Under the pieces are notes generated by a model that saw only the letters and a program-made list of their open reading frames with translations, was not told the origin of the DNA and did no database searches. Of a DNA stretch of 64,000 nt, positions 1 through 42,763 are shown one piece after another (within the stretch, counting starts at the first letter, position 1; each line of letters starts with the position of its first letter). Source of the stretch: an uncultured Bacilli bacterium (GTDB lineage Bacteria; Bacillota_I; Bacilli_A; RF39; UBA660); the NCBI GenBank assembly GCA_947623925.1, contig CANQID010000002.1:25823-89822 (forward strand), read 5' to 3'. Position numbers and translations under genes: made by a program.

Positions 1-1
1 T

Positions 2-85
2 AATTTAGATGTATTAAGAGAATATGATCCAAATGGTGTAGATAATTTTTTAAAAACTAAAAATTCAGATGAATTAGAAAGATAA
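2..85 (+). CDS. 3' end of a CDS entering from upstream (hypothetical, element-borne)
   Basis: The frame is open from the window edge to TAA at 83-85 (...NLDVLREYDPNGVDNFLKTKNSDELER*). Confidence 0.35.
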   Translation, partial: NLDVLREYDPNGVDNFLKTKNSDELER

Positions 86-87
86 CA

Positions 88-2055
88 ATGTCATTAAATA
101 GTATTATTGTTTTAATTATTATATTTATAATACTCATAGTAATAAATTTTGTAGAGCCACTTTTCACAAAAGAAAAAATAAAAGATAATAAAGAACATGG
201 ATCAGCAAGATGGGCAACATTCAATGAAATAAAAAAATATTTTAATGTAGAAAAAACAAATAATATAATTGAAAGTGGTTTTCCAATCTATTATAGTAAG
301 AACAATAAAAAAATATGGTTTGATAGACAAACTCCCCATTGGATTTATTTAGGTTCAACAGGAAGTGGAAAAAGTGTTACTTCGGTAATTCCAATGTGTT
401 CTTTTATAGCTACTGCTAAAGTTAAAAAAAGTGTTTTTATAACAGATCCTAAGGGAGAGATATTTTCGACTACAAGTAAATTGTTTAAAGATAATGGTTA
501 CAATGTTTTAACACTTGATTTTAGACAACCAGAGTATAGTAATCATGTAAATTTGCTAGAGCCAATTATAAGGGAATACGAACTTTATGATAAGTATAAA
601 AAAAAGAGTGAGATAGAGAATAATAAAAAGAAAAAGATGGATTATAAAAACAAATCAATTACTCATTTTGCAGAGGCAAATCAACTCGTAAGTGATATAT
701 GTAAAATGATAATGGAAGATACAACTGCAAAAGAAAAATTTTGGAATAATAGTGCAAGTGATTTATTATATGGAATAATATTTTTATTTTTGGAAGATTA
801 TATAGATGGAAAAATAAAAAGAAATCAAATTACATTGACATCGATAAAAAAATTTCAAAATAGTTCTATGACAGAAAGTAATAACAGAAAATTAAAAAAA
901 TATATTGAAACAAAAACCTACGAAATGAAAAGTAAAGATAAATTATTACCTATTTTAAATATATCAGATACAACATATAGATCTATAATTTCTACATTTA
1001 ATGAAAGAATGACAATATATGATGATGTAAATGTAGAAAATATAACATCAAATTCAGATTTTGATTTTGATATTTTAGGTAAGCAACCAACAGTATTGTA
1101 TTGTTGTATTCCAGATGAATCAAAAATTTATTATTCTTTAATATCAATAATTGTATCATTAATATATAAAACATTGGTATTATTATGTAATGAACAAAAG
1201 AATAAAAGACTTCCTTATGATTTAGTATTTATGTTAGATGAATTTGCAAATACGCCACCACTACCTGATATAACCACGATGGTTAGTGTAGCTAGAAGTA
1301 GGGGAATGTGGTTTAATTTTTATCTACAAAGTTTTGCTCAATTGGATAATTTATATGGTAAAGATGTTAGTCAAATCATACAGGATAATTGTGGTCTTGC
1401 ATATTTAAAAACTAATACACAATCGACAGCAGAGGAAATAAGTAAAAGACTTGGTGTTCATGGAGTTTCTACTTCATCAATTAATTATTCGATGAGTTTT
1501 ACAAATAACAATGGGAGTAAAAATACATCATTAATAAGTAGAAGTTTGATGACTGCTGATGAAATTAAACAACTTCATTATAAAACAATAATTTTTTCTA
1601 CAATAGGTTATCCAATTATTAGAGATACTATTCCTTATAATAGATTTAGTTGTTATAAAGCAGGTATTATTGAAAGGAAAAAAAGACCTCTTGAAAGATT
1701 GGTTAATACTTATTATACAGTAGAAAATATTTTGACAAATGAAAGTTCAAAAGCAACACCAAATTCACAAAAAATAAATTCAGATGAAATAAATGATGAT
1801 TGTAAATCTAAATTAAAAAATATAGTAAAAGAAATTTTAAAAATATTTGTTAATGTAGATTATGAAACTGAATATGTAAATACAAATGATAATAGTAGAA
1901 TTGATTTATATTTATCTTCTATTATGTCTAATAATGATATGTCGTCTTTGTTTGAATTATCAGAAAAAATGGGTTTTCATTTTACTATAATATCTGGTAA
2001 AGATAAGATAGATAAGGAAAATAGAAATTCTAAAATAGAAATAAGTTTGAATTAG
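88..2055 (+). CDS. Type IV secretion coupling protein (VirD4/TraG/TcpA-like ATPase)
   Basis: N-terminal TM helix, Walker A 'YLGSTGSGKSVTS', Walker B 'LVFMLDEFANTP', about 650 aa and its position in a conjugative element. Confidence 0.65.
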   Translation: MSLNSIIVLIIIFIILIVINFVEPLFTKEKIKDNKEHGSARWATFNEIKKYFNVEKTNNIIESGFPIYYSKNNKKIWFDRQTPHWIYLGSTGSGKSVTSVIPMCSFIATAKVKKSVFITDPKGEIFSTTSKLFKDNGYNVLTLDFRQPEYSNHVNLLEPIIREYELYDKYKKKSEIENNKKKKMDYKNKSITHFAEANQLVSDICKMIMEDTTAKEKFWNNSASDLLYGIIFLFLEDYIDGKIKRNQITLTSIKKFQNSSMTESNNRKLKKYIETKTYEMKSKDKLLPILNISDTTYRSIISTFNERMTIYDDVNVENITSNSDFDFDILGKQPTVLYCCIPDESKIYYSLISIIVSLIYKTLVLLCNEQKNKRLPYDLVFMLDEFANTPPLPDITTMVSVARSRGMWFNFYLQSFAQLDNLYGKDVSQIIQDNCGLAYLKTNTQSTAEEISKRLGVHGVSTSSINYSMSFTNNNGSKNTSLISRSLMTADEIKQLHYKTIIFSTIGYPIIRDTIPYNRFSCYKAGIIERKKRPLERLVNTYYTVENILTNESSKATPNSQKINSDEINDDCKSKLKNIVKEILKIFVNVDYETEYVNTNDNSRIDLYLSSIMSNNDMSSLFELSEKMGFHFTIISGKDKIDKENRNSKIEISLN

Positions 2056-2123
2056 AGTGTAGTGAATTTAGTATCTTTAGTGTATAATTATTATAGAAAA
2101 AACATTGGAATTTTGGTGATACG

Positions 2124-2309
2124 ATGGACAATAAAAATTTTGACGAAGAAGAGAAATATGGAGAAAAAGAAAAAGCAATAGCAAATATTATAAGTATTAC
2201 TATATTGTCATTAATAGGAATAGCAGTTATAGTATTTTTAACATTAAAGTATTTATCTAAAGAAATCTCAGAATATCATATGAAACAAAGTATTATTATT
2301 TGGAAGTAA
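2124..2309 (+). CDS. Small membrane protein (61 aa, one TM)
   Basis: ORF with a hydrophobic core 'IANIISITILSLIGIAVIVFLTL', lying between the coupling-protein gene and the giant gene. Confidence 0.35.
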   Translation: MDNKNFDEEEKYGEKEKAIANIISITILSLIGIAVIVFLTLKYLSKEISEYHMKQSIIIWK

Positions 2310-2374
2310 CTGATAAAAATAGAGAAGAAATAATCTCAAGAATTGAACAAGAAAATTAAGAGTATTGTGATTCT

Positions 2375-2521
2375 ATGTATAAAATAGAATTTCATAATTC
2401 ATTTCCAGATTCTACAGATTATACGATTTATTGTGGTGATGAAGGAAATATAACATTTTCAATTGATGGATCTGTTATTGCAACTTATATATTAGAGCAT
2501 GGAAGAACTGAATTAAGATAA
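2375..2521 (+). CDS. Small hypothetical ORF (48 aa)
   Basis: ATG...TAA ORF below the ORF-track cutoff in the gap before the giant gene. No motif was recognised. Confidence 0.2.
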   Translation: MYKIEFHNSFPDSTDYTIYCGDEGNITFSIDGSVIATYILEHGRTELR

Positions 2522-2592
2522 TTATTTAATGATATGAAATATGTTGTCATAATGACAACTTTTTTATTTTACAGAAAGGGGGAATTATAAAC

Positions 2593-5500
2593 TTGAAAGA
2601 TGAATTTAAGGAAGTCTTTTTTCAAACTAGAGATGAAACTTTAGAACTAATAAAAAAAGATAATTACAATTGGAATAAATTTATGAGTTATTGGTCAAAA
2701 TTGTTAGATGGCTATGGTATTGATAATATAATAAATTTATATTCATATAATCCAAATGGAAGAATTTATCATACATTTGATGAGTGGAATAATGATATTA
2801 TTGATAGAAAAATAAAACCTAAAAGTAGAGGTATTCCTATACTCAAAAATGGTAAGAAAATATATGTTTTTGATATAAAGCAAACTTATGGTAAAGATTA
2901 TAATCATTGGAATTATAATCACTTGGTAGATTATGAAATGTTGAGATTTTATCAAAATAGAAATAAAATTATAGATAGTGATATACCAATGAATGAACGA
3001 TATTATAAAGTGTTTTATAATATTGTTGAAGATAATATTCAAAATAATTATAGTAATTTGAACGAAGAAGAAGTTGAGGTTATTACAAAAATGATAACCT
3101 CACTTTTTTTGTATAAATGTAATTTTAATACATATAACTTGTCAAATGGTTTTGAGTTAATTAATGATTTTAACAATGAAGATATTTTAAGATTTATGCA
3201 AGTTGCTAATAAAGAAACAAAAGCAATTTACGAGAAATTTTATATTGATACACAAAAAATGCAAGATGTACAATATAAAATTAAAAATGCTATTATTGAA
3301 CAATATAAAACTAATCAATTTATGCCTAACAGTGATAAGCAGGGATTTTTAGAAAGTATCGAAATTGATAGTGGGTACGATTTTGAGTTATTAAATGATA
3401 TTTATAATAATTTGTTAGACAAGTATTCATATATTAATCAGAAACTATCAAGTTCTAATGATGATAAAAATGTAGAAAGTTTATCGAAAGATATTGATAA
3501 TACAAAAGGTAAAGTTGAGCAGTTATCACTATTTAATGGTATAGAAGATGAATTAGCAAATAAACTTTGTGATATATTTAATTCTTTTGATACAAAATAT
3601 AAAAATACATTTGAAATTCATAATGTCGAACTACAAAAATGGGAACACATAAAATCTAATAAACGAAATTTGTCAATCATTTTATCTAGCCCTATTGCTG
3701 ATATGGGGGAAAATGCTTTTTCACATTTTAATGTTGATAAAACAGATGAAAACAAATTAAATGAAGGAATTGCAAATAATGCTTTTATTCAATCACTATA
3801 TAAAGATAAAGATTTTTCAATTTATATTTCACCTAATTTGGTACATATTTATTGGAACAATTTTGATGAAAAACAATTCGATATGACTATACCTAGTACA
3901 AAATTGATAACTCAAAATGAAATTGATAGTCAAGAATTAGAACACATCGATAATGAAGTATCTGATATTATTGATAATAATATATCTTATAAAGTTACAA
4001 CTGCTAGAATTATACCAACTCGTAATGGTATTGAAACTAATGTAATTGAAGAACATAGTTATAATAGTGTAGGAGAAGAAGTTAAAGAAGAATATCCACC
4101 ACTTAATTATCATATAGATGATGATAAAATTGATACAAGCTTTGGTGCAAAATCAAAGTTTGATGATAATATAAAGGCAATAGAATTATTAAAAAAACTA
4201 GAAAAAGAAAATAGAAATGCAACAAGTGATGAACAGGATATTTTGTCAAAATATGTAGGTTGGGGTGGAATTGCTGATGCTTTCGATGAAAGAAAAGATA
4301 ATTGGAAAAATGAAAGAGAAAAATTAAAATCACTTTTAACCGATGAGGAATATAAAGAATCTGCACATTCTACTTTGTCATCTTTTTATACACCAAATCT
4401 AGCAATAGATGGAATATATAAAGTATTGAAACAATTTGGTTTTGAAAAAGGAAATATATTAGAGCCAAGTTGTGCAATTGGAAACTTTTTTGGAAGATTA
4501 CCTAGTGAATTTGAAAAATCTAAATTATATGGTGTAGAGATAGATAGTATAAGTGGTAGAATTGCTAAAAAACTTTATCCTAACGCTAAAATAGAAATAA
4601 GTGGTTATGAGAATTCGAAAGTTTCAGATGAATTTTTTGATGTTGCAATAGGTAATGTACCTTTTGGTAATAATACAGTATATGACAAAAGATATAAAGA
4701 TAAATTTTTAATTCATGACTATTTTTTTCAAAAAACATTAGATAAAGTTAGAGCTGGAGGATTAATTGCTTTTATAACTACTGATGGAACATTAGATAAG
4801 AAAGATACTAGAGTAAGAGAGTATATAGCAAAAAGAGCAGAATTTTTAGGAGCAATAAGATTACCAAATAACACTTTTTTAGGAAATGCAAATACAAAAG
4901 TTACATCTGATATTATATTTTTGAAAAAAAGAAATGAACTTAAGTTAGATATAAATGATGAAAAATGGATTTATACAAGTGAATATTCTGATGGAATTAC
5001 AATAAATAACTATTATGTTGATAATCCTGATATGATGCTTGGAAAAATGGAATTACAATCGACTGCGTATGGCTATGATAATACATTAAGTCCAACTGAT
5101 GAAGATATTAATATATTAATGGAACAAGCAATACATAATTTACCTAGAAATATTTATGAAAAAGTTACATATAACGAAGAAGAAATAAATAATGAATATG
5201 AAATACTTGATGCAGATGACGATACTATTAAAAATAACGCTTTTGTTATTAAGAATATAAATAATAAAGATGTCATTTATCAAAGATTGGATTCATCATT
5301 AGTACCATATCCGATTCAAGATGGAATGGTAGCAAAAAGAATTATTGGTCTTTGTAAAGTGAAGACAGCTTTAAGATATGTTTTTGATGTACAACTTCAT
5401 GATGGAAGTGATGAAGATTTAGAAATAGCACAACAAATCTTAAATGATGAATATGATGAGTTTTGCAAAAAGTATGGTTATATTAATGATAGTTCAAATG

Positions 5501-8500
5501 AAAGAGCATTTAGTAATGATCCAGATTATTATTTACTTACATCTATTGAAAATATTATAAATAAGGATGAAGATGATAGTAAGCCAATATATGAAAAAGG
5601 AGATGTTTTTACAAAAAGAACTATTAGAAAAAGTAAGAAAGTAACTAAAGCTGAAACTGCTGAGGATGCATTAAGATATTCATTAAATAATCGAGGGTGT
5701 GTTGATTTTGAATATATGAAAAAATTATATCCAAAAGAAGATAATGAGATAATTAATGAATTAGATAATTTAATATTTCAAGATCCTGAAAAAGAAAGTA
5801 ATTCTAATAATGGTTGGGTAATAGCAAGTGAATATTTGAGTGGTAATGTAAAGCATAAACTTAAATTTGCTAAATCAATGAATATTGATAATAAATATGA
5901 CAAAAATATTGAGGCACTCGAAAGGGTACAACCTAAACCTATTGAGTATGACGAAATAAGTGTTAAATTAGGAACAACATGGATACCAGAAGATATATAT
6001 CATGATTTCTGTTGTGAATTATTAGATATATATGGTGAAAATAAAAACCTACTAAAAATAAAATATGTAAAAGAAGCAAACACATGGTTATTTCAAGCAA
6101 GTGGTTTATATAATTATGGAATAAAAAGCACGAGTACTTGGGGAACTCATAGAGCTGATGCTTTAGCTTTAATAAAGAATGCTTTAAATCTTCAAACTGT
6201 AACTGTATACGATCAACTCGAAGATGACAGGAAAGTTGTAAACCCTATTGAAACTGCTAATGCAAGAGAAAAGCAAGAATTAATAAAACAAGAATTTAAA
6301 GATTGGATTTGGAGAGATGAAGAAAGAAGAAATAGATTAACAAAATTATACAATGAACAATTTAATTGTATGAGAGAAAGAGAATTTGATGGTAGTCATT
6401 TAACTTTCGATGGCATGAATCCAAATATAGAACTTAGGACACATCAAAAAAATGCAGTTGCTCGTGTTTTATATGGTGGGAATACATTACTTGCTCATGC
6501 AGTTGGTGCAGGCAAAACATATGAGTGTATAGCAAGTGCTATGGAATTAAAAAGACTTGGTATTGTTAGTAAACCCATGTTTGTTGTTCCAAATCATTTA
6601 CTAGGACAATGGGCAAATGAAATATTAAAACTTTATCCTATGGCAAATATTCTTGTGGCAACTCAAAAAGATTTTGAAAAAACAAGAAGAAAAAAGTTCA
6701 TGGGAAAAATAGCAACAGGGGAATGGGATGCAGTTTTAATTGCACATTCTAGTTTTGGACTTATTCCTATGAGTAAGGAATATGAAGAAAAACATATGCA
6801 AAAACAAATATATGAAATAACTAGTGCTATTGAAAGAATAAAAGAAGAGTCAGGGAAAGGTTTAAGTGTAAAGAAACTTGAACAAATGAAAACAAGCATG
6901 GAAACAAAATTAAAATCATTATTAGATGCACAAAAAGATGATGTAGTTACATTTGAAGAACTTGGCGTAGATGAATTAATTGTTGATGAGGCACATATGT
7001 TTAAAAATCTACCAATGTATTCAAAAATAAGAAATGTTGCAGGAATAAATAATAGTGAAAGTAAAAAGGCTACTGATTTATTTATGAAAGTAAGTTATAT
7101 ACTTGAAAATAATGGTGGAAGAGGAGCAATATTTGCAACAGGTACTCCAATATCTAACTCAATGGGAGAATTATTTGTAATGCAAAGATATCTTCAAATT
7201 GATAGATTAAGAGAAATGAAATTAGAATATTTTGATGAATGGGCTTCAACTTTTGGAGAAATAGTTAATAGTTTTGAAATAGCACCTGATGGTAGTGGTT
7301 TTAGAACAAGAGCAAGATTTGCACAATTTTTTAATATTCCAGAACTTATGACTTTATTTAAAGAAATTGCTGATATTAAAACCTCAAAAATGTTAGATTT
7401 ACCTATTCCTAAATTAAAAGGTGGAGATTATAAGATTGTAGTTGCACCTAAAAGTGAAGAATTAGAAGAGTATATACAAAAATTAGCAGAGAGAAGTGAG
7501 GTAATTAGAGAAGGTTGTGATCCTAGAAAAGATAATATGCTTTTAGTTACAAATGATGGAAGAAAAGCAGCACTCGATTTAAGAATGATAGATCCAAGTA
7601 TGCCAGATTTACCAAATTCAAAGATAAATATGGCAGTAGAAAATATTTATAGAATATGGTTAGAGAACAAAGAAAACAAGCTAACACAACTTGTTTTTTG
7701 TGATTTATCTACACCTAAAAATGATGGTACTTTTAATGTTTATGATGATATTAGAAATAAATTGATTAAAAAGGGTGTACCAAGTGAAGAGATTGAGTTT
7801 ATTCATAATGCTAAAACTAATCAACAAAAATTGAAATTATTTGAAGACATGAGGAATGGAACAAAACGAGTGCTTATAGGCTCAACTTCTAAAATGGGTG
7901 CAGGTATGAATGTTCAAGACAAATTAATTGCTTTACATCATCTTGATTGTCCATGGAGGCCATCTGATATAGAACAAAGAGAGGGGAGAATTTTAAGACA
8001 AGGAAATCAAAATGATGAGGTAGAGATATATAGGTATGTAACAGAGGGTAGTTTTGATGCTTATTCATATCAATTAATTCAAACTAAATCAACTTTTATA
8101 AATCAAATAATGGCTAATAGTAATGGTGGAGGAAGAACAGCAGAAGATTTAGACAGAGATACACTTACTTATGCAGAAGTTAAAGCACTTGCTAGTGGAA
8201 ATCCTTTGATTTTAGAGAAATTTAAAGTTGAGAATGAATTAAAACAATTATATTTATCTAAAAGTAGGTATGATAAAACTCATATTGAACTTGAATCAAA
8301 ATATAATAATGAACTTCCAAAACAATTAAAATACCAAAAACAATATTTAAGCAATCTTGAAGAAGATATAAAAAATGTAAAAGATTTGTCTGCTGATAAT
8401 TTTAAAATTACTATTATGGAAAAAGTATATAATTCAAGAAAAGAAGCAAGTACAAAATTTTACGAAAGTTTGTCATTATTGAAATTAAATGAGGAAATCA

Positions 8501-8874
8501 AATTGGGTAGCATAAGTGGTTTTGATATTGTTGGTATAAAAGATGGATTATGGTATAAACCTATAATTTATATCAAAGGTGCAGGAAAATATAGGGTTGA
8601 GATAAACGATATAGACGAAATTGGTAACATTTATAAATTAGAAAATATGTTAAAAAGTTTTGAAAATAAGATAAATACAGTTAAAGAGCAAATAAGTTAT
8701 AACGAGAAACAACTTATCGATATAAAAGAAGAACTTGACAAACCTTTTAACCAACAAGATAGAATTAAAGAATTGCAAAAAGAAAAAGCTAGAATTGATA
8801 GTGAACTTGATTTAGATAAGCAGGAAAATATGACAAATTTAGATGAACTTGATGAAGAAGTGATTGAAAGATAA
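2593..8874 (+). CDS. Giant (2093 aa) N6-adenine DNA methyltransferase + SNF2/DEAH helicase fusion protein, DarB-like (probable anti-restriction protein of the mobile element)
   Basis: MTase motif I '[12 protein letters not shown]' (aa ~623) and motif IV 'GNVPFGNN' (aa ~686). Helicase motif I '[11 protein letters not shown]' (aa ~1300), 'DEAHMFKN' (aa ~1464) and HELICc '[25 protein letters not shown]' (aa ~1780). About 600 aa at the N terminus have no recognised domain, and the C terminus is coiled-coil. Confidence 0.75.
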
Positions 8875-9185
8875 AACTTTTTAGATTTTTTGCAAAAAAA
8901 CTCTTGCAAAATTTACTTTTTTAAGTGATAAATAAACTGAACAAAAAATGCTGTTAAACATATCTAATTCAAACGATATTAAAGGTGATGTGATAAATAC
9001 TAAAAAATAAAACCTCTTAAAACAGCTTTAAATAGTTCTTATGAAAGAAAAAGAAGAATTTAACCAAGATTTACTGAATTATATTACTGAAACAACAAGT
9101 AATGTCAGAAATTTAATAGATAAATTAGAAAAAAAGGAAGATATAAATAAATTAAAATTTTTAATTTTGAATCGATTGGATTGTA
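8872..9185. repeat. Degenerate duplicate (with two internal deletions) of the promoter/5'-gene module at 10879-11530
   Basis: About 110 bp are near-identical (8872-8990 vs 10879-10990). The copy then continues with fragments matching the start of the 11080 ORF and parts of the 11331 ORF. Confidence 0.8.
8904..8935 (+). promoter_or_regulatory. Putative sigma-A-type promoter (TTGCAA -35, about 17-nt spacer, TG-aTAAAT -10 region), copy 1
   Basis: The sequence 'TTGCAAaatttacttttttaagTGATAAAT' sits immediately after the giant gene's stop and is duplicated at 10911-10942. Confidence 0.35.
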
Positions 9186-9193
9186 TTATATGA
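9041..9193 (+). pseudogene. Chimeric 50-aa ORF fusing the N-terminus of the 11080 ORF to fragments of the 11331 ORF (decayed paralog, no Shine-Dalgarno)
   Basis: It translates to MKEKEEFNQDLLNYITE|TTSNVRNLIDKLEKKEDINKLKFLI|LNRLDCII. The RBS present in copy 2 ('gaaaggag') is deleted here. Confidence 0.45.
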
Positions 9194-9430
9194 TGCTAGT
9201 AAGGGACTGTTAAGAAATTAATCATTTAATTTTTGAACAGTTCCTTTGAACATGATTATAATTTTAAGTCTGGATGGTTACTGTTATTTAAAAAAACAAA
9301 AAACCAGAAATTAGTTGAAAAATGATTTTGAAAGTGATATACTCAAATTAGAAAAATCAGAAAGAGTTTCACAACATATAGATGGGAGGGATGACACAAT
9401 AATATAATGTTTTTTTGAAATTGATTTGAA

Positions 9431-9497
9431 GTATGTTGTATGTTGTGTGTTGTATGTTGTATGTTGTGTGTTGTGTGTTGTATGATGTATGCTGTAG
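9431..9497. repeat. GT-rich microsatellite, imperfect (TGTTGTRTG)n, about 7 units
   Basis: Direct reading gives 'gtatgttgtatgttgtgtgttgtatgttgtatgttgtgtgttgtgtgttgtatgatgtatgctgtag', about 80 bp upstream of the 9580 ORF. Confidence 0.85.
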
Positions 9498-9579
9498 ATT
9501 TTTTTAAGGTAAGGAGGTAGTATGAAAATAATTTTTGTTTTCATGACTATGTGTGCCTTGAATAAAGAGAAAGGAATGT

Positions 9580-10263
9580 GTGGTTATTATGAAAAAATTA
9601 AAAGAAAAAATTTTAAAGATTTTATTAGTAGCAGTACTTGCAGTACCATTTTTTTTATCAAACAGTTCAACTGTTTTAGCATATGAGTCAGACACAATTG
9701 ATGAGGCTTTTAAAAATTTACAAAATAAAATAGATTCTAAACTAGATATAGTGTATGATAATGGTGAATATGTTTACTCATATAATTATGATGATATTAA
9801 AGAAATAATATATAATTCTGGATTTGATTTTGAACAATTTAATGCCAAGTATGGAACAAATTATGACAAAACTTCATTTTTAAATGCTGTTATAACTTCA
9901 ATAGATAGTACAAAATTACATTCAAATGTAGCACCAATTGCAAATTATTGTAATCATGATGAAAGTACTCAAGGATGGAATTATTATAGAGAATTTATGT
10001 CAGAATCTGTGTCAAAAAATACCGTATCAGATTTAAGGCAAACAGCAACTAATTTTAGACTTGGTGGAACAGGAGTAGGGTTGTTAATAGGTACTGTTAG
10101 TAAATTATTTGGAGGAGTATTTAAATTGGGTACAGCATATGATGCTTGGTATTTTGATACATTAGCAAATTCAATAGAAGTTAATATGTCTGGTTGTGGT
10201 ACTGTAACTGACATCAATAAATTTACTACTGTATTTACTGTATGGGATCAAAGAGATTTTTAA
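9580..10263 (+). CDS. Secreted protein (227 aa) with signal peptide and a C-terminal Gly-zipper amphipathic region; putative toxin/bacteriocin-like cargo
   Basis: Signal peptide 'KKLKEKILKILLVAVLAVPFFLSNSSTVLA|YE' and a C-terminal 'LGGTGVGLLIGTVSKLFGGVFKLGTAYDAWYF'. The likelier start is the ATG at 9589. Confidence 0.5.
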   Translation: MVIMKKLKEKILKILLVAVLAVPFFLSNSSTVLAYESDTIDEAFKNLQNKIDSKLDIVYDNGEYVYSYNYDDIKEIIYNSGFDFEQFNAKYGTNYDKTSFLNAVITSIDSTKLHSNVAPIANYCNHDESTQGWNYYREFMSESVSKNTVSDLRQTATNFRLGGTGVGLLIGTVSKLFGGVFKLGTAYDAWYFDTLANSIEVNMSGCGTVTDINKFTTVFTVWDQRDF

Positions 10264-10280
10264 TAAGGAGGTAGCTATTA

Positions 10281-10538
10281 ATGAAATTGGGAAAAAAAAC
10301 CAGTAAGTATATTTATATAATAATATCTTTGCTAGCTGTTTTCTTACTTTTTTTAGGAATCGGTAAAGTGATTGAACTTAGATTGGCTTCATTACTTATT
10401 GAATTTTTGGTTTGTATTACATTTTTAATTGATTCTATTTTTAAGTTTAAAGAAGGTAAAAAGGCAGAAGCATTAACATTTTTAATTTTTGTTATATTAA
10501 TGGTTTTCTTTACTATTTCAAGTCTCCTAAATTATTAG
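10281..10538 (+). CDS. Small membrane protein (85 aa, 2-3 TM), candidate immunity/partner protein
   Basis: The RBS 'taaggaggtag' precedes it, it is hydrophobic throughout, and it lies 18 bp after the secreted-protein gene. Confidence 0.5.
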   Translation: MKLGKKTSKYIYIIISLLAVFLLFLGIGKVIELRLASLLIEFLVCITFLIDSIFKFKEGKKAEALTFLIFVILMVFFTISSLLNY

Positions 10539-10603
10539 TTTTTTGATTTTTTAAGTATATAATGAAAGGGTCTGTTTGGAAATTAAATTATTGATTTTAC
10601 GGC

Positions 10604-10697
10604 TCTTCGAAATCTAGTGGGGGAGTAAAAAATAGTTCTCATCGAAATTTGATGAGGACTTTTTTTCATATTATCTTCGAGTTTTAGTGAGGAGTAA
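10604..10697. repeat. Three imperfect about 24-bp direct repeats (iteron-like), consensus tcYtcgaRwtYtaGtGrGGAGta
   Basis: R1 is 10604-10628 'ctcttcgaaatctagtgggggagtaa', R2 is 10637-10660 'tctcatcgaaatttgatgaggact' and R3 is 10673-10697 'atcttcgagttttagtgaggagtaa'. Confidence 0.6.
10635..10668 (+). terminator. Rho-independent terminator after the secreted/membrane gene pair
   Basis: The stem 'ctcatc' + loop 'gaaattt' + 'gatgag' is followed by 'gactttttttc'. Confidence 0.5.
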
Positions 10698-10910
10698 CAA
10701 AAGGTTGTTATTCACTTTTTTATATGAGATAATTATTATATAATTTATATTACTAGAAAAGGCTCAAAAGTTTAAATGAATTATTATGATGAATTGGCTC
10801 ATCTAACATTAGCTGTTAGAATCATTTATGACTATTATAAATTTTAATTACGAAATTTGGTATAAAGAAAATCCAAATAAAACATTTTTAGATTTTTTGC
10901 AAAAAAACTC

Positions 10911-10942
10911 TTGCAAAATTTACTTTTTTAAGTGATAAATAA
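10911..10942 (+). promoter_or_regulatory. Putative sigma-A-type promoter, copy 2 (drives the 11080/11331 genes)
   Basis: Same sequence as 8904-8935, placed about 140 bp upstream of RBS 'gaaaggag' and the ATG at 11080. Confidence 0.35.
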
Positions 10943-11079
10943 ACTGAACAAAAAATGCTGTTAAACATATCTAATTCAAACGATATTAAAAGTGATGTGG
11001 AGGGTTTGGTAACTATAAGTACTAAAAAATAAAACCTCTTAAAACGGCTTTAATTAGTTCTTATGAAAGGAGTTTATTT

Positions 11080-11316
11080 ATGGAAGAAAAAGAAGAATTT
11101 AACCAAGATTTACTGAACTATATTACTGAAAATTTTAAGGCAACAATGGAAAGTGATTTTGAGGAAAAAGTTTATGGCTTTCCATATACAAGATGTCTTA
11201 ACACATTTTTTCAAAGGTTAAAGAAAGAATATAATATTGATTTTAATGCTGATTTTATAAGTGATAAATTATTAGATAAAGTTGTTGAAGAATTTTTATT
11301 AAATATAACTAAATAG
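11080..11316 (+). CDS. Hypothetical protein (78 aa)
   Basis: Good RBS 'gaaaggag'. Its N-terminus 'MEEKEEFNQDLLNYITE' is duplicated in the chimeric copy at 9041. Confidence 0.5.
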   Translation: MEEKEEFNQDLLNYITENFKATMESDFEEKVYGFPYTRCLNTFFQRLKKEYNIDFNADFISDKLLDKVVEEFLLNITK

Positions 11317-11330
11317 AGGAGGAATGATTT

Positions 11331-11834
11331 ATGTATATTACTGAAACGACAAGTAATGTTAGAAATTTAATAGAGGAATTGGAAAAAAAGGAAGATATAA
11401 ATAAATTAAAATTTTTAATTTATATATTTGGATTATTAAATAATGACCAAATAAATACTGATAATGAATTAAATCCTAGTTTAGTAGAAAAGGATGATAT
11501 GAAAATTTTTAATTTTGAATCAATTGGATTATCAAATAATATATGCACAATATTATTACAATATTTTTCTATGTTATATAATAATATGACAAATACAAAA
11601 GATACATATGAGGACAATGGAAATATTATTGGTGTTAATTATGATAAGGAAGATAAAGAAATTATTTCAAAATTTGAAAAACTTAAATTTAATGAAAAAT
11701 TAGATTTATTTAGTGAAATTATAATTAGATACGATAATGAAACTTACTTTGATAAAAAAATTACAAATCCCTTATTTAATTTAAGGTTGAGTGGATTTGA
11801 AATGGCAAAAATAATTAGAGATTTAAAAATATAG
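11331..11834 (+). CDS. Hypothetical protein (167 aa)
   Basis: RBS 'agaggagg'. The N-terminus 'MYITETTSNVRNLIEELEKKEDINKLKFLI' is partly duplicated at 9090-9170. No motif was recognised. Confidence 0.5.
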   Translation: MYITETTSNVRNLIEELEKKEDINKLKFLIYIFGLLNNDQINTDNELNPSLVEKDDMKIFNFESIGLSNNICTILLQYFSMLYNNMTNTKDTYEDNGNIIGVNYDKEDKEIISKFEKLKFNEKLDLFSEIIIRYDNETYFDKKITNPLFNLRLSGFEMAKIIRDLKI

Positions 11835-12000
11835 TATTAAATCTTTAGAGTGTTATTTGAAAACTTAATATTTAGATAGCATTCTATGGATAAATCTATC
11901 TTCATTACAATATTGAGTTTTCAAATAATGTATTAGGAACTCAATATTTAGAGTTCTTTTTTTCATTTATTCAAATAAGTTTAAATGAGGAGGAGAAATA

Positions 12001-12201
12001 TTGGACAATGGTCTTTCAATTAATATTGCTAAAAAAGAAATTCAAAAAGCAATTATTAATGAACTCTTTAAAAAAGGCGTAATAGATTTTTGTCAATGTA
12101 ACAACATTATAAAGAAGTTAGATGAAGATATTATAAAATTAGAAGATAAATTAGAAAATAAGGAAAATATGACAAATATAATAGTTAAAATTTCAATTTA
12201 A
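12001..12201 (+). CDS. Small acidic/coiled-coil protein (66 aa), candidate recombination directionality factor/regulator
   Basis: RBS 'gaggaggag'. It ends 2 nt before the recombinase RBS region, consistent with translational coupling with the recombinase gene. Confidence 0.4.
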   Translation: MDNGLSINIAKKEIQKAIINELFKKGVIDFCQCNNIIKKLDEDIIKLEDKLENKENMTNIIVKISI

Positions 12202-12218
12202 AAGTGGGAGGAATAACG

Positions 12219-13946
12219 ATGGTACTGAATTTGTATTCAATAAGAAATATTTTATCACAAGGAAAAAAATTAATAGATTTACCACTTCGCGTAACATTTT
12301 ATGCTCGTGTATCAACAGACCATGAAGAACAATTAAATTCATTAGAAAATCAGGTCATGTATTTTGAAAATTATATTAAATCACAAGCAAATTGGATATT
12401 TGTAAATGGCTATGTAGATGAGGGTATAAGTGGAACAAGTGTTAATAAAAGAGATAATTTTCTTAAGATGATAAATGACGCTAAAAAAGGAATGTTTAAT
12501 TTGATATTAACAAAAGAAATATCGAGATTTTCAAGAAATACTATTGATAGTATTCAATATACACAAGAATTATTATCTTATGGTGTTGGAATATATTTCT
12601 TAAATGACAATATTAATACATTTGATTCAGATTCAGAACTTCGTTTAACTATTATGTCATCTATTGCACAAGATGAAATAAGAAAATTATCAGAAAGAAT
12701 TAGATTTGGTTATAAAAGAAGTATTGAAAAAGGAGTAGTCCCTGGAAGTGATAATTTTTATGGTTATAAAAAAAATAAAGGTAAGTTGGAAATAGTAGAA
12801 GAAGAAGCAAAACTAATAAGACTTATTTTTAATGAATATAGTAAAGGAAAAATGGGTACTTCAAAACTAGGGCGTTATTTATATGATGAATATAATATTG
12901 TAAGTAAAACGAATAAAGCATTAGCAGGGGCTGTTATAACAAAAATAATTAGAAATCCAAAATATAAAGGTTATTTTTGCGCTCATAAGGAAACTACAAT
13001 TGACTATCATTCAAAAAAAAGAATTAGATTTAAACCAGAGGAATGGATATTATATAAAGACAATGAGTCATGTCCTCCAATAGTGTCAGAAGAACTATGG
13101 GAAAAATGTAATAAAATATTAGAAGAAAATTCTATAAAACATAAAACGAATACTAGAACTGATATGAGGTATGCTTTATCTGGGAAAATAAAATGTTATC
13201 ATGATGGGGCATCTTTCATAAGAGGTAGCTATAAAAATAGGAGAACAGGAGTAGAGAGCAAGTATTGGGGATGTTCTAATTACAGAAAATATGGAAAATC
13301 CAAAATTAATGGGTGTAGAACTCCTATTATATATTACAATGAATTATTAGATATATTTAAAAAAATAATAAATAATATATTAGATCAAGAAAATGGCGTA
13401 GTCGAAGAAATTTATGGATTAATTGATGAAATAGAACAGAAAACAGACTACACAAAAGAAATAAATGAGGTAGATAGAAAGATAATAGAAATAAAAAAAG
13501 CAAAATCAGAATTAATTAATATGAGGGCAAGAAAAGAAATAGAGAAAGATGAATATAACGAATCGAAAGAAAAATATAATAGTGAATTATTAACTCTTGA
13601 AGAGAGGAAACAAAAATATTTAGCAACAAGTTTAAAAGTAGACTACAAATCCAACATTAATGATTTTATCAAAAAAGTTCGTGATATAGTTTTAGAAGAT
13701 GACGAATCCGTTTTTAGTATATTTGGTTCTGTAATTGATAAAATATTAGTAGAAAAATTAGAATCAAAAGAAGATAATATTCATAAGATAATGTTACATT
13801 TTAAATTGAACATACTTGGCTACGATAAAAGTAGCTTAAATTTAAATGATTTTTTACTGCTTTTTAGTAACCACGACAGACGCAGTTGTGGCGCTTGCAG
13901 AAAAGATAGCGGGAACGGAAGAAATGTTTGTAGATATGATGAATAA
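12219..13946 (+). CDS. Large serine recombinase (resolvase/invertase catalytic domain + recombinase domain + zinc ribbon + coiled coil)
   Basis: The active-site context 'VTFYARVSTDHEEQLNSLENQ' is present. The protein is about 575 aa with a Cys cluster ('CPP...C', 'CYHDG...GCSNYRKYGKSKINGCR'). RBS is GGGAGG and ATG is at 12219. The 3' end overlaps the dac junction. Confidence 0.85.
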   Translation: MVLNLYSIRNILSQGKKLIDLPLRVTFYARVSTDHEEQLNSLENQVMYFENYIKSQANWIFVNGYVDEGISGTSVNKRDNFLKMINDAKKGMFNLILTKEISRFSRNTIDSIQYTQELLSYGVGIYFLNDNINTFDSDSELRLTIMSSIAQDEIRKLSERIRFGYKRSIEKGVVPGSDNFYGYKKNKGKLEIVEEEAKLIRLIFNEYSKGKMGTSKLGRYLYDEYNIVSKTNKALAGAVITKIIRNPKYKGYFCAHKETTIDYHSKKRIRFKPEEWILYKDNESCPPIVSEELWEKCNKILEENSIKHKTNTRTDMRYALSGKIKCYHDGASFIRGSYKNRRTGVESKYWGCSNYRKYGKSKINGCRTPIIYYNELLDIFKKIINNILDQENGVVEEIYGLIDEIEQKTDYTKEINEVDRKIIEIKKAKSELINMRARKEIEKDEYNESKEKYNSELLTLEERKQKYLATSLKVDYKSNINDFIKKVRDIVLEDDESVFSIFGSVIDKILVEKLESKEDNIHKIMLHFKLNILGYDKSSLNLNDFLLLFSNHDRRSCGACRKDSGNGRNVCRYDE

Positions 13947-14667
13947 AAGAGCAAAAGAATTAGGATTAACAGAAACTAACTTTAAAAATGTACATGGATT
14001 ACATGATACAAATCATTATTCAAGCGCATATGATATGTCAATAATAGCTAAAGAACTTGTAAAGCATGAAAAGCTATTTGAATACACGTCAATTTATGAA
14101 GACTACTTAAGACAAAACACAGATCGTAAAATATGGCTAGTTAATACAAATAAACTAGTAAGATTTTATAATGGTGTTGATGGATTAAAAACAGGATATA
14201 CAAAAGAAGCAGGATATTGTTTAACTGCAACAGCAAAAAAAGACAATATGCGTGTAATAGCTGTAGTAATGGGAGAACCCGATAGTCAAACAAGAAATAA
14301 AGAAGTAACGGAAATGCTAGATTATGCTTTTGCTCAATATGAAGTAGAAGAAATATTGTCAAAAAATAGTATTTTAGATAAAGTTAAAGTTTCAAAAGGA
14401 AAAGATGAATATGTAGAAATAGTACCAACACAACAAATAACATTTTTAAATAAAAAAACAGAACCTAAAAAAACAGCTACTTTTGATTTAAATATAAATA
14501 AACTATCTGCTCCTTTAAAAGTTGGAGATAAAGTAGGAACTATTAAAGTAAAAGAAGACGGAATAGAAAGAATAATAGATGTAACAGTTAAAAATGATAT
14601 AGAAAAAGCAAATATATTTGAAGTATATATAAGAAACTTAAAAGATATGCTTGTAGGCAATATGTAG
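13878..14667 (+). pseudogene. Interrupted D-alanyl-D-alanine carboxypeptidase gene (dacF/dacB/PBP5 type): C-terminal about 260 codons only
   Basis: The sequence 'DAVVALAEKIAGTEEMFVDMMNKRAKELGLTETNFKNVHGL...GLKTGYT...' aligns to PBP5-type enzymes from the SGN motif onward. The SGN motif is replaced by element-derived 'TTT', and the SxxK active-site serine region is absent. Confidence 0.65.
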
Positions 14668-14779
14668 TTTATATAAATTTAAAGTTAAAACTAAAATTTT
14701 AACTTTTTTAAAAATTTTAAAAAACCCATAAAACTATTTACAAATAAATAATAATTTTGATAAAATCAAATATAGGGGA

Positions 14780-15910
14780 GTGGGTTTTATGAGTAGTGAA
14801 AAAAATTTAAAATTAATAGTTTTAAAAAGTGCCTTAGAATTAGGAAAAAACGTAGATTTTCATCTTATGAATTTACACAAAAATTCAAATGAAAGTTTTA
14901 TAGTACCTGTTAAAGAAACATGGTTTAGTGATGGACATGGTAAAGTTGAATTATTAGATTCAGTTAGAGACAAAGATGTATATATAATTACAGATATTGG
15001 AAATTATTCAATAGAATACAAAATGAATAAATATATTAATCATACCTCACCAAATGATTTAGCATCACAATTAAAAGATACATTAGGTGCTTGCAAATGT
15101 CATACTAGAACTTTATCAGTAATAATGCCACTATTATACGCAGGAAGACAACACAGAAGAATTAGTAGGGAAGCACTATCATGTGCAACATATTTGCATG
15201 AATTAGATTGTGATTCAAAAGTTAATAGGATAATAACATTTGATGCACATGATGATGGAGTTCAACAAGCATTATTCCAAACAGAATTTGATAATTTTTA
15301 TGCAACAAATATAATGCTAGAACAATTTATTAATAATACAAATATAGAAGAATTAAAAAATATAATTTTCGTCGCACCAGATTCAGGTGCAATAGGAAGA
15401 ATGAACGTTTATTTAAATTCATTTAACAGTGAACATATAGATAAAGATGCAGGAAATTTTTACAAAAGAAGGGATTATAATAAAATAGTCGATGGAAAAC
15501 ATCCAATTATTCAACACTCATATTCAGGAAATCCTAATATAAAAGGTAAAACAGCAATAATAGTAGACGATATGATTTCATCAGGTTCTTCAATGTTAGA
15601 CTCAATAGACACATTAAAAAAAATGGGTGTAGAACATGTATATATAATGTGTACATATGCACTATTTACAGAAGGTATAGAAAAATTTAAAAAATATTAT
15701 GAAGATAAAAAATTTGATGGAATTTATACTACTAATTTAAGTTATATTGATGAAGAATATAAAAAAGAAGAATGGTTAAATATAGTAGATTGTTCAAAAT
15801 ATATTGCAGATATAATATATAACCTTCATAATGGTGATAGTATTTGTAGTTTGTTAAGGGATAAAAGCTATCCATCAAAAGTTCTAGAAAAAAAATTTAA
15901 AAACAGTTAA
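14780..15910 (+). CDS. Ribose-phosphate pyrophosphokinase family protein, long and divergent (376 aa)
   Basis: PRPP-binding loop 'AIIVDDMISSGSSMLDSIDTLKKMGVEHVYIMCTYALFTEG' and a flag-region analogue 'RQHRRISRE'. It carries insertions relative to the canonical ~315-aa Prs. Confidence 0.5.
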   Translation: MGFMSSEKNLKLIVLKSALELGKNVDFHLMNLHKNSNESFIVPVKETWFSDGHGKVELLDSVRDKDVYIITDIGNYSIEYKMNKYINHTSPNDLASQLKDTLGACKCHTRTLSVIMPLLYAGRQHRRISREALSCATYLHELDCDSKVNRIITFDAHDDGVQQALFQTEFDNFYATNIMLEQFINNTNIEELKNIIFVAPDSGAIGRMNVYLNSFNSEHIDKDAGNFYKRRDYNKIVDGKHPIIQHSYSGNPNIKGKTAIIVDDMISSGSSMLDSIDTLKKMGVEHVYIMCTYALFTEGIEKFKKYYEDKKFDGIYTTNLSYIDEEYKKEEWLNIVDCSKYIADIIYNLHNGDSICSLLRDKSYPSKVLEKKFKNS

Positions 15911-42699: not shown

Positions 42700-42763
42700 A
42701 CTCTTATAGAGTTTTTTTCATATATATTTTTTTAGTACATATAATTTTATAGGAGGAAATTAT

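What the first reader, a model, noticed from the sequence alone, without database searches (positions are those of the whole stretch)
12219..14667. Conjugative element integrated inside a PBP5/DacF-type D,D-carboxypeptidase gene, with the serine recombinase reading across the junction
The host ORF downstream of the element aligns to D-Ala-D-Ala carboxypeptidases only from the SxN motif onward, through 'GLKTGYT' to the end. The active-site SxxK half of the gene is missing from this side, and the codons at the junction read 'TTTD' instead of 'SGND'. The large serine recombinase gene's last ~23 codons overlap this region, so its C-terminus would change on excision. In spore formers, intervening elements removed by a terminal large serine recombinase (skin in sigK, SPbeta in spsM) reconstitute sporulation genes. 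This organism carries yabG, spoVG, yabPQ and gerQ, and DacF/DacB are sporulation carboxypeptidases. The insertion could therefore be a developmentally excised element, or simply an ICE that inactivates this PBP.
Basis: partly seen in the sequence, partly recalled or inferred. Interest (0 to 1): 0.65.

Follow-up and report, generated by a model that had tools for sequence, protein, structure and literature searches.

The report
Conjugative element splitting a sporulation carboxypeptidase gene
A conjugative mobile element, inserted by a large serine recombinase, cleanly splits a spore-associated cell-wall carboxypeptidase gene in an uncultured low-GC spore-forming bacterium, and it belongs to a large, previously undescribed family of elements that all hit the same codon of this gene.

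Summary
Window 13879-14667 is codons 120-381 of a 381-aa PBP5-type D,D-carboxypeptidase gene. The first 119 codons lie at the other end of the element, on the same public contigs. Other assemblies of what appears to be the same species (about 94-98% DNA identity) carry the uninterrupted gene in the same synteny. Homology to that empty site stops on both sides at one shared GA (window 13879-13880), which is the 2-bp crossover expected of a serine recombinase. Joining the halves gives a 381-aa ORF.

The element is at least 24 kb and carries VirD4, VirB4, an M23 hydrolase and a weak relaxase match. A 575-aa large serine recombinase sits at its right end. Its last 22 codons and its stop codon are host DNA.

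New here: more than 100 related recombinase clusters (70-100% identity) all end in frame-shifted dac sequence. About 90 distinct N-terminal Dac fragments end in a conserved element-encoded tail. Family members range from about 4 kb and 5.5 kb cassettes to this conjugative element. All share a 66-aa ORF plus the recombinase.

By synteny the gene is DacF-like, but it carries a conserved sigmaE-like promoter. Sporulation-timed excision is neither shown nor excluded. The ordinary reading, a site-specific mobile element in a dispensable conserved gene, is favoured.

The parts
1..13880 (+). Right-hand 13.9 kb of the integrated conjugative element. The window begins inside the element; its left end (attL) lies outside the window.
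   Evidence: 100% identical to L001/L003 of ENA contig NODE_71, which extends the element another 9.9 kb upstream. Homology to the empty-site locus L006 begins only at 13879.
88..2055 (+). Type IV secretion coupling protein (VirD4/TraG-like), 655 aa
   Evidence: Pfam T4SS-DNA_transf 2e-56, TraG-D_C 1e-29, TrwB_AAD_bind 2.5e-18
2593..8874 (+). 2093-aa SNF2-type helicase fused to an N6-adenine-methyltransferase-like region, a typical accessory gene of conjugative elements
   Evidence: Pfam SNF2-rel_dom, ResIII, Helicase_C. PADLOC orphan methyltransferase match at residues 590-728. Homologous large helicases sit upstream of the recombinase module in L098 and L105.
11935..11958 (+). Hairpin plus T-run (terminator-like), conserved immediately upstream of the recombination module
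   Evidence: The only terminator-like site in 11000-15000, against 0.2 expected. Conserved in all five family members compared.
12001..12201 (+). 66-aa ORF directly upstream of the recombinase. Candidate recombination directionality factor or regulator (inferred).
   Evidence: Present in the same position in every family element examined, including the ~4-kb and 5.5-kb minimal ones. No Pfam or PHROG match.
12219..13946 (+). Large serine recombinase, 575 aa. The last 22 codons and the stop codon are host dac DNA read in another frame.
   Evidence: Three diagnostic Pfam domains. PHROG integrase 4e-109. The RVSTD motif with the catalytic Ser is invariant in 35 homologues. The exact protein is found on 6 public contigs.
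13843..13878 (+). Element-side arm of attR (one half of attP), lying inside the recombinase coding sequence
   Evidence: Reconstructed attP has 21/36 dyad matches at zero shift, against 8-11 at other shifts. It includes a perfect 10-nt inverted repeat ACTGCTTTTT / AAAAAGCAGT. The arm is conserved in L098, L104, L106 and L107.
13879..13880 (+). GA crossover dinucleotide
   Evidence: The only bases shared by attL (L091), attR (window) and attB (L006). L091 aligns to L006 up to position 583, and L006 aligns to the window from position 582 (= window 13879).
13879..14667 (+). 3' part of the D,D-carboxypeptidase gene: codons 120-381 plus stop. It lacks the signal peptide and the SxxK active site.
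   Evidence: tblastn of P0001 residues 120-381, 96.9% identity. Pfam S11 profile positions 102-237 plus PBP5_C.

Best explanation
An integrative conjugative element sits inside a sporulation-associated PBP5-type D,D-carboxypeptidase gene.

Shown:
- The element's large serine recombinase site (attP) and the host site (attB) share only a central GA. This GA is the first two bases of the Asp codon that follows the Ser-Gly-Asn motif.
- Integration leaves a 137-aa N-terminal stub, which keeps SxxK but lacks everything after the SxN motif, KTG included. It also leaves a leaderless 3' fragment.
- The insertion is clean, with no target duplication beyond GA.
- The recombinase gene's own 3' end contains one attP half-site, so in the integrated state its last 22 codons and stop codon come from host DNA.
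- The same recombinase clade, always with a 66-aa upstream ORF and a conserved left arm of about 130 bp ending in a hairpin, drives elements from about 4 kb to more than 24 kb into this same codon in hosts whose Dac proteins are only about 53% identical.

Inferred:
- The enzyme is inactive while the element is resident.
- The recombinase, probably with the 66-aa protein as directionality factor, excises the element precisely. This rebuilds the gene and a 588-aa recombinase ORF followed by the left-arm hairpin.
- The excised circle is then transferred by the element's type IV secretion system.
- The site is used because it is a highly conserved sequence in a gene whose loss is tolerated, not because the host needs timed excision.
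For: - Domains of the recombinase and the dac fragment.
- Empty-site alleles in the same synteny, L006-L010.
- The attL fragment P0121 on L091.
- The in-silico join gives a 381-aa ORF, 373/381 identical to P0001.
- Homology to the empty site breaks exactly at GA on both sides.
- attP dyad symmetry of 21/36.
- Conjugation genes: VirD4, VirB4-like ATPase, M23 peptidase and SSB, and a sub-threshold relaxase match of 7.7e-5.
- 119 of the 120 listed recombinase homologues end in '...DFLLLFSN'. About 100 then carry a variable Cys/Ser/Gly-rich tail that is frame-shifted dac sequence. The P0242 tail equals the shifted translation of the L011 dac gene exactly.
- About 90 of the 120 listed N-terminal Dac fragments end in a conserved element-encoded tail.
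- A complete 5,515-bp family member lies between the two dac halves in L100-L104. The join there gives a 383-aa ORF.
- A tandem pair of elements occurs in L098.
- Both hits of a right-arm pattern in the metagenome-contig collection are attR-dac junctions.
- Intact and split alleles coexist in four lineages.
- The closest solved relative is a C. difficile conjugative-transposon recombinase, 3g13, 3.4e-40.
- TndX of Tn5397 also uses a central GA and targets a conserved protein-coding domain (PMC4430133).
- No sporulation-type promoter is conserved within 700 bp upstream of the recombinase.
Against: - The left part of this particular element, between L091 and L003, could not be retrieved. Its full size (24-38 kb is my estimate from contig coordinates) and a confident relaxase or oriT are missing.
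- No excised circle or transfer event is observed.
- The dac gene has a conserved sigmaE-like promoter.
- Some family members are tiny non-conjugative cassettes found in many samples. This would also fit domesticated, sporulation-excised intervening elements.
- Nothing shows that loss of the gene is tolerated in this lineage.
Confidence: 0.68

Rival explanations
1. Sporulation-gene intervening element, like skin, SPbeta, vfbin or gin. The recombinase and its directionality factor are switched on in the mother cell. They excise the element and rebuild a functional carboxypeptidase gene for cortex synthesis, while the forespore chromosome keeps the element.
For: - The host is a spore-former lineage: YabG, YabP, GerQ in the window; CotE and SpoVAC/D/E in related loci.
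- The dac gene carries a conserved [GT]HATAnn-N13-CATAnnnT motif 43-46 nt upstream of the start codon. The strict form is in 10/28 loci against 1% background, the relaxed form in 19/28 against 8%.
- The motif's spacing matches the yabP promoter in this window.
- It fits the sigmaE consensus tabulated in PMC3416734.
- The insertion is inside the ORF and is precisely reversible.
- The machinery is the same as in known cases: a large serine recombinase plus a small candidate directionality factor.
- Minimal non-conjugative family members occur in many samples.
- Non-phage intervening elements are already known, for example gin (PMC5595907).
Against: - No sigmaE, K, F or G-like promoter is conserved within 700 bp upstream of the 66-aa/recombinase module in five elements. 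That region is a conserved hairpin plus T-run followed directly by the ribosome-binding site.
- By sequence and synteny the gene is DacF-like. DacF is forespore-expressed in B. subtilis (PMC3416734, PMC5376575).
- The element is polymorphic, present in some assemblies and absent from others.
- It carries conjugation genes that give excision another purpose.
- Large serine recombinase elements commonly target conserved coding sequence with no developmental role, for example Tn5397 in fic.
Confidence: 0.2
2. Immobilised or decaying insertion. The element no longer excises, and the carboxypeptidase gene is permanently knocked out in carrier strains.
For: No attP or excised form of this element was found. 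An attP-specific pattern gave no match in JGI metagenomes. The relaxase match is sub-threshold.
Against: - All large ORFs are intact: 655, 2093 and 575 aa.
- The catalytic Ser motif is invariant.
- Element copies from several samples are 100% identical over 12-14 kb, which suggests recent spread.
- The split gene halves carry no disabling mutations.
Confidence: 0.08
3. Ancestrally truncated gene or assembly chimera, not an insertion.
For: None beyond the absence of the 5' half from the window itself.
Against: - The 5' half is found at the other element end.
- The empty site is found in other assemblies.
- The breakpoints are exact.
- The same junction occurs in independent ENA and Logan assemblies and in many other species.
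Confidence: 0.01

Closest known systems
Tn5397 / TndX (Clostridioides difficile conjugative transposon with a large serine recombinase)
   Same: A conjugative element whose terminal large serine recombinase integrates it at a central GA dinucleotide. The preferred target lies inside a conserved protein-coding domain (PMC4430133).
   Different: The target is fic, not dac. TndX is reported to be sufficient for both integration and excision, whereas here a conserved 66-aa ORF accompanies the recombinase. Sequence relatedness to TndX was not measured. The conjugation genes seen here (VirB4/VirD4, a large SNF2-methylase) were not compared with the Tn916-type module.
C. difficile 'putative conjugative transposon recombinase' (PDB 3g13)
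   Same: Best solved-structure match to the catalytic domain: 3.4e-40 over residues 23-177.
   Different: Only the N-terminal domain is solved. Its att sites and target were not examined here.
Sporulation-gene intervening elements: skin (sigK), SPbeta (spsM), vfbin (spoVFB), vrin (spoVR), gin (gerE)
   Same: An element bearing a large serine recombinase interrupts the ORF of a sporulation-associated gene in a spore former. Precise excision would rebuild the gene. A small accessory protein could act as directionality factor (PMC5595907, PMC4191935).
   Different: Developmental excision is not shown. No sporulation promoter was found on the recombinase module. The element is a conjugative element with type IV secretion genes. 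The target, a D,D-carboxypeptidase, was not mentioned in the three intervening-element and gene-integrity papers checked, and no full-text search found it.
Myxophage Mx8 intP and SSV1 int (attP inside the integrase gene)
   Same: The attachment site lies within the integrase coding sequence, so integration changes the integrase C-terminus. This comparison is from my own knowledge and was not tested here.
   Different: Those are tyrosine recombinases. Here only about 22-35 C-terminal codons are swapped. They fall in a region that AlphaFold2 models with pLDDT below 50, so a functional effect is doubtful.

Membership tests
Large serine recombinase (serine integrase) | N-terminal resolvase catalytic domain with a serine nucleophile | tested here: met
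   PF00239 1.4e-29. R30-V31-S32-T33-D34 are invariant in 35 homologues.
Large serine recombinase (serine integrase) | Recombinase domain plus zinc-ribbon domain with a coiled-coil insertion | tested here: met
   PF07508 2.3e-18 and PF13408 1.8e-09. Long helices at 394-471 in the AF2 model, at moderate confidence.
Large serine recombinase (serine integrase) | attP x attB exchange at a 2-bp central dinucleotide with no further target duplication, and an imperfect dyad in attP | tested here: met
   GA is the only overlap between attL, attR and attB. attP dyad is 21/36 against 8-11 when shifted.
Large serine recombinase (serine integrase) | Catalysis of integration, and of excision with a directionality factor | not testable with these tools
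   Needs an in vitro or in vivo recombination assay.
Integrative conjugative element | Integration module, defined ends and an empty site | tested here: met
   attR in the window, attL on L091, attB on L006-L010.
Integrative conjugative element | Type IV secretion: coupling protein and VirB4-type ATPase | tested here: met
   VirD4 at 88-2055. TraC-like/DUF87 834-aa ATPase and M23 hydrolase in L003.
Integrative conjugative element | Relaxase and oriT | tested here: inconclusive
   L003 5211-6575 matches Pfam Relaxase at 7.7e-5 with 23.4 bits, just below the 24.6-bit cut-off. The left part of the element was not retrievable.
Integrative conjugative element | Excision to a circle and conjugative transfer | not testable with these tools
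   An attP pattern scan of JGI metagenomes found nothing. The only attP-like junction seen is a tandem array in L098.
Sporulation-gene intervening element (skin/SPbeta/gin type) | Interrupts the coding sequence of a sporulation gene | tested here: met
   All ~50 Bacillaceae best hits are dacF followed by spoIIAA-spoIIAB-sigF. Related MAGs keep dac near STAS-sigma-spoVA. The promoter is a conserved sporulation type with a CATA -10 box.
Sporulation-gene intervening element (skin/SPbeta/gin type) | Target gene is expressed in the mother cell | tested here: inconclusive
   The promoter looks sigmaE-like, with the same spacing as yabP. Orthology by synteny points to forespore-expressed DacF.
Sporulation-gene intervening element (skin/SPbeta/gin type) | Recombinase or directionality factor under sporulation-specific control | tested here: not met
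   No sigmaE, K, F or G-like motif is conserved within 700 bp upstream of the recombinase in five elements. A regulator elsewhere in the element is not excluded.
Sporulation-gene intervening element (skin/SPbeta/gin type) | Excision during sporulation that reconstitutes the gene | not testable with these tools
   Needs PCR or sequencing of vegetative against sporulating cells.

The most novel reading that the evidence does not exclude
The whole family, from 4-kb cassettes to this conjugative element, consists of sporulation-gene intervening elements. The recombinase and the 66-aa factor excise them in the mother cell to rebuild a sigmaE-driven cortex carboxypeptidase gene. This would be the first intervening element found in a peptidoglycan-remodelling gene, and the first that is a self-transmissible conjugative element. 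It would be spread across an uncultured gut spore-former lineage.
Probability: 0.2. Interest if true: 0.75.

Novelty: new member of a known kind. Interest (0 to 1): 0.45.

Why it matters
The analysis defines a large and apparently undescribed clade of serine integrases, with attB, attP and crossover mapped to the base. The target is conserved across hosts whose Dac proteins are only about 53% identical. That is useful for annotating mobile elements in gut metagenomes and as candidate integrase/att pairs for genome engineering.

It also explains why many assemblies of this lineage report 'truncated' carboxypeptidase genes of about 136 aa and 247-275 aa.

If excision proved to be sporulation-timed, regulated gene rearrangement would extend to a cortex enzyme and to a conjugative element. 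As it stands, this is a clean, well-bounded case of a known kind of event.

Tried and rejected
Two look-ups of the attL fragment P0121 returned only a 1.1-kb contig. The left third of this element and its exact length therefore remain unseen.
- The recombinase and dac fragment with the ORF listing start codons were not on record. The ATG at 12219 is the annotated start.
- The genome-contig scan with the intact Dac returned only uninterrupted loci. The window's species is not among the 80 loci kept.
- Sigma-70 promoter scans around the recombinase module and at attL gave counts near shuffle expectation (32 vs 30.8 ± 5.1; 16 vs 8.9 ± 3.0) and singled out no site.
- I first concluded that the gene is forespore-type DacF, which would argue against a skin-like model. 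I withdrew that as decisive after finding the conserved sigmaE-like promoter.
- A weak sigmaE-like match upstream of the 66-aa ORF (CAATATT-N15-CATTTATT) was rejected. Its spacing and -10 box are off, and it is not conserved in L098_B or L104.
- The attP-junction pattern found nothing in JGI metagenomes.
- PHROG and Pfam give nothing for the 66-aa ORF or the other small element ORFs.
- Literature searches found no report of dac or dacF as an integration target.
- The listing of cluster members gave no organism names.
- The AF2 model of the recombinase is only moderate (mean pLDDT 64.6). I used it only to note that residues 533-575 are low-confidence.
Full report
**What is in the window**

The region is very AT-rich, about 25% GC. 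Window 12219-13946(+) encodes a 575-aa large serine recombinase with Resolvase, Recombinase and Zn_ribbon_recom domains. It has a GGGAGG ribosome-binding site 7 nt upstream of the ATG. The exact protein occurs on six public contigs.

The overlapping ORF at 13846-14667 matches Peptidase_S11 only from profile position 102 of 239 onward, plus PBP5_C.

Upstream lie a VirD4-type coupling protein (88-2055) and a 2093-aa SNF2/methylase-like protein (2593-8874). On ENA contig NODE_71 the sequence is 100% identical to the window. The 10 kb upstream there adds a VirB4-like ATPase, an M23 peptidase, an SSB, an HTH regulator and a 454-aa protein with a sub-threshold relaxase match. The window therefore begins inside a conjugative element.

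**Proof of insertion**

A search with the dac fragment found P0001, an intact 381-aa protein 97% identical to it. P0001 is encoded on five contigs from other samples, in the same synteny: tRNA-Gly, dac, prs-like, yqeG, yqeH, HerA-like.

A search with P0001 residues 1-119 found P0121, 137 aa. Its first 119 residues are identical to P0001 and are followed by an 18-aa foreign tail. P0121, the recombinase (P0241) and the 3' fragment (P0002) are each listed on 4 contigs with the same longest contig of 125,298 nt.

L091 gives the attL sequence.

- L091 aligns to the empty-site locus L006 up to L006 position 583.
- L006 aligns to the window from L006 position 582, which is window 13879.
- The only overlap is GA, at window 13879-13880.
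- Joining L091 to window 13879-14667 gives a 381-aa ORF that is 373/381 identical to P0001.
- P0001 matches the window only with residues 120-381.

The rival explanations 'ancestral truncation' and 'assembly artefact' are excluded.

**The att sites**

| Site | Sequence |
|---|---|
| attB | ...GCAAGTGGTAAT-GA-TGCAGTTGTAGCG... |
| attL | ...GGCAAT-GA-GGTAGAAGTTGTGAAAAAGCAG... |
| attR | ...ACTGCTTTTTAGTAACCACGACA-GA-CGCAGTTGTGGCG... |

The reconstructed attP is an imperfect palindrome about GA. It has 21/36 matches at zero shift against 8-11 at other shifts, with a perfect 10-nt inverted repeat.

A 2-bp crossover with no other duplication is the signature of serine recombinases. A central GA is also the target feature of TndX of Tn5397, which likewise prefers a conserved coding domain (PMC4430133). 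The closest solved relative of the catalytic domain is a C. difficile conjugative-transposon recombinase, 3g13.

**The recombinase reads across the junction**

One attP half-site (13843-13878) lies within the recombinase ORF, where it encodes ...LNLNDFLLLFSNHD. The last 22 codons and the stop codon are host dac DNA read in another frame.

In the excised circle the ORF would instead run into the element's left arm. That gives 588 aa, ending just before a conserved hairpin plus T-run.

AlphaFold2 models residues 533-575 at pLDDT below 50. The host-encoded tails of homologues vary from 0 to about 25 residues. The tail is therefore probably dispensable, and the conserved 'DFLLLFSN' may reflect the DNA site rather than the protein. 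This last point is inference.

**A large family at the same codon**

- All 120 listed recombinase homologues are 70-100% identical to this one, and 119 of them carry '...FLLLFSN' near the C-terminus.
- About 100 then have a Cys/Ser/Gly/Arg-rich tail, which is what dac 'DAVVA[LM]AE...' gives when read out of frame. The P0242 tail equals the shifted translation of the L011 dac gene exactly.
- The roughly 19 very short tails arise where a T precedes GA and so creates a TGA stop. This was seen directly in L107.
- Conversely, about 90 of the 120 listed N-terminal Dac fragments (56-100% identical) end in the tail D[AV]VV[TV]KKQ.QVI.EEI.I, or a version of it cut short.
- Both independent hits of a right-arm pattern in another collection are attR-dac junctions.

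Family members differ widely in cargo:

| Locus | Element |
|---|---|
| window | at least 24 kb, conjugative |
| L093 | at least 10 kb: PHP, two DegT, LysR, APH, ABC-F, radical SAM |
| L098 | two elements in tandem, the inner one about 4 kb |
| L100-L104 | complete 5,515-bp element with a lipase-like gene |

The L100-L104 element sits in a Dac only 53% identical to those of the window's lineage. Its join gives a 383-aa ORF.

Three things are shared by the family. The first is about 2.4 kb at the right end, 81% identical in DNA between the window and L098/L099. The second is about 128 bp at the left end, 84% identical. The third is the pair of genes common to all: the recombinase and a 66-aa ORF immediately upstream of it. 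I take the 66-aa ORF as the candidate directionality factor. This is inference.

Intact and split alleles coexist in four lineages. Element copies from several samples are 100% identical over 12-14 kb. Both observations fit active spread.

**What kind of dac gene, and the developmental question**

The host lineage forms spores. YabG, SpoVG, YabP and GerQ are in the window. CotE and SpoVAC/D/E are in related loci. NCBI labels the related MAGs Bacilli, Tenericutes, Mollicutes or Clostridium sp..

Every one of about 50 Bacillaceae best hits (50-55% identity) is dacF followed by spoIIAA-spoIIAB-sigF. In related MAGs, dac lies next to or a few kb from a STAS-sigma-spoVA cluster, and pdp lies upstream as in Bacillus. 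By sequence and synteny the gene is DacF-like. DacF is forespore-expressed in B. subtilis (PMC3416734, PMC5376575).

However, the dac genes of this lineage carry a conserved [GT]HATAnn-N13-CATAnnnT motif 43-46 nt upstream of the start codon.

- The strict form is in 10/28 loci, against 1% of random 100-nt windows.
- The relaxed form is in 19/28, against 8%.
- The spacing equals that of the yabP promoter in this window, TCATATA-N13-CATATAAT at 42718.
- L037 reads TCATATTT...TCATACATTT, a perfect match to the tabulated sigmaE hexamers.

The spacing is 3 nt too short for sigmaG as I recall that consensus. The compartment of expression is therefore unresolved, and the promoter leans towards the mother cell. 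Known intervening elements all sit in mother-cell genes (PMC5595907).

Against a developmental switch:
- No sporulation-type promoter is conserved within 700 bp upstream of the recombinase module.
- That region is a hairpin plus T-run followed directly by the ribosome-binding site.
- The element is polymorphic.
- It has its own reason to excise, namely transfer.

I put the developmental reading at about 0.2.

**Verdict**

The observation and the structural interpretation are confirmed to the base. The thing is a new member of a known kind: an integrative conjugative element driven by a large serine recombinase, with a gene-internal target. It belongs to a large, modular and apparently undescribed dac-targeting family. 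No report of dac as such a target was found. Whether excision is tied to sporulation needs junction-read or culture experiments.

Noticed in passing
L006 135-224; L011-L040, L093 and L104 upstream of dac; window 42718-42745: The dac genes of this lineage share a conserved sigmaE-like promoter ([GT]HATAnn-N13-CATAnnnT) at a fixed 43-46 nt from the start codon. Its spacing is the same as the yabP promoter in the window. This is at odds with the DacF (forespore) orthology suggested by synteny.
   Followed up: partly
L011 19607-20625; L030 11344-12320; L029 12483-13469; L100 17593-18603: The spoIIA-like operon in these MAGs is a STAS protein directly followed by a SigF-like sigma factor, with no room for the SpoIIAB anti-sigma kinase. 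A conserved 0A-box-like TTTGTCGAA lies upstream.
   Followed up: no
L105 4120-6134: In one genome the same dac gene is split a second time, further downstream at ...WLVNTNK|, by a different 481-aa serine recombinase element with a phage-like neighbour gene. The gene seems to be a hotspot for several recombinase lineages. Some N-terminal fragments also end in other tails (DAVVTGKRKNYI, DAVVAIRKS, ELAWTE).
   Followed up: no
L098 10001-15740: Two family elements sit in tandem at the dac site. The first recombinase reads into the left arm of a second element of about 4 kb (radical SAM gene, 66-aa ORF, recombinase). This creates an attP-like hybrid junction.
   Followed up: partly
window 8873-9182 and 10880-11530; 9431-9496: A partial duplication (90-98% identical) of the starts of the 78-aa and 167-aa ORFs brackets a segment of about 1.7 kb. 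That segment holds a 227-aa and an 85-aa ORF and looks like a secondary insertion within the element. A 7-nt tandem repeat (GTATGTT x9.4) lies inside it.
   Followed up: no
window 14780-15910 and 17551-19320: A Prs-like phosphoribosyltransferase lies just downstream of dac. It has weak PRTase-CE and PADLOC PRTase hits and is absent from the sister species L011/L012. A HerA-like ATPase (PADLOC HerA 6e-114) lies in the host flank without an obvious partner gene.
   Followed up: no
PMC3416734 (Epulopiscium genome paper): The authors report that only about 50% of the 5' end of the putative dacF homologue was found and that no full-length gene could be obtained by PCR. This is reminiscent of a split dacF, but it was not examined here.
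   Followed up: no
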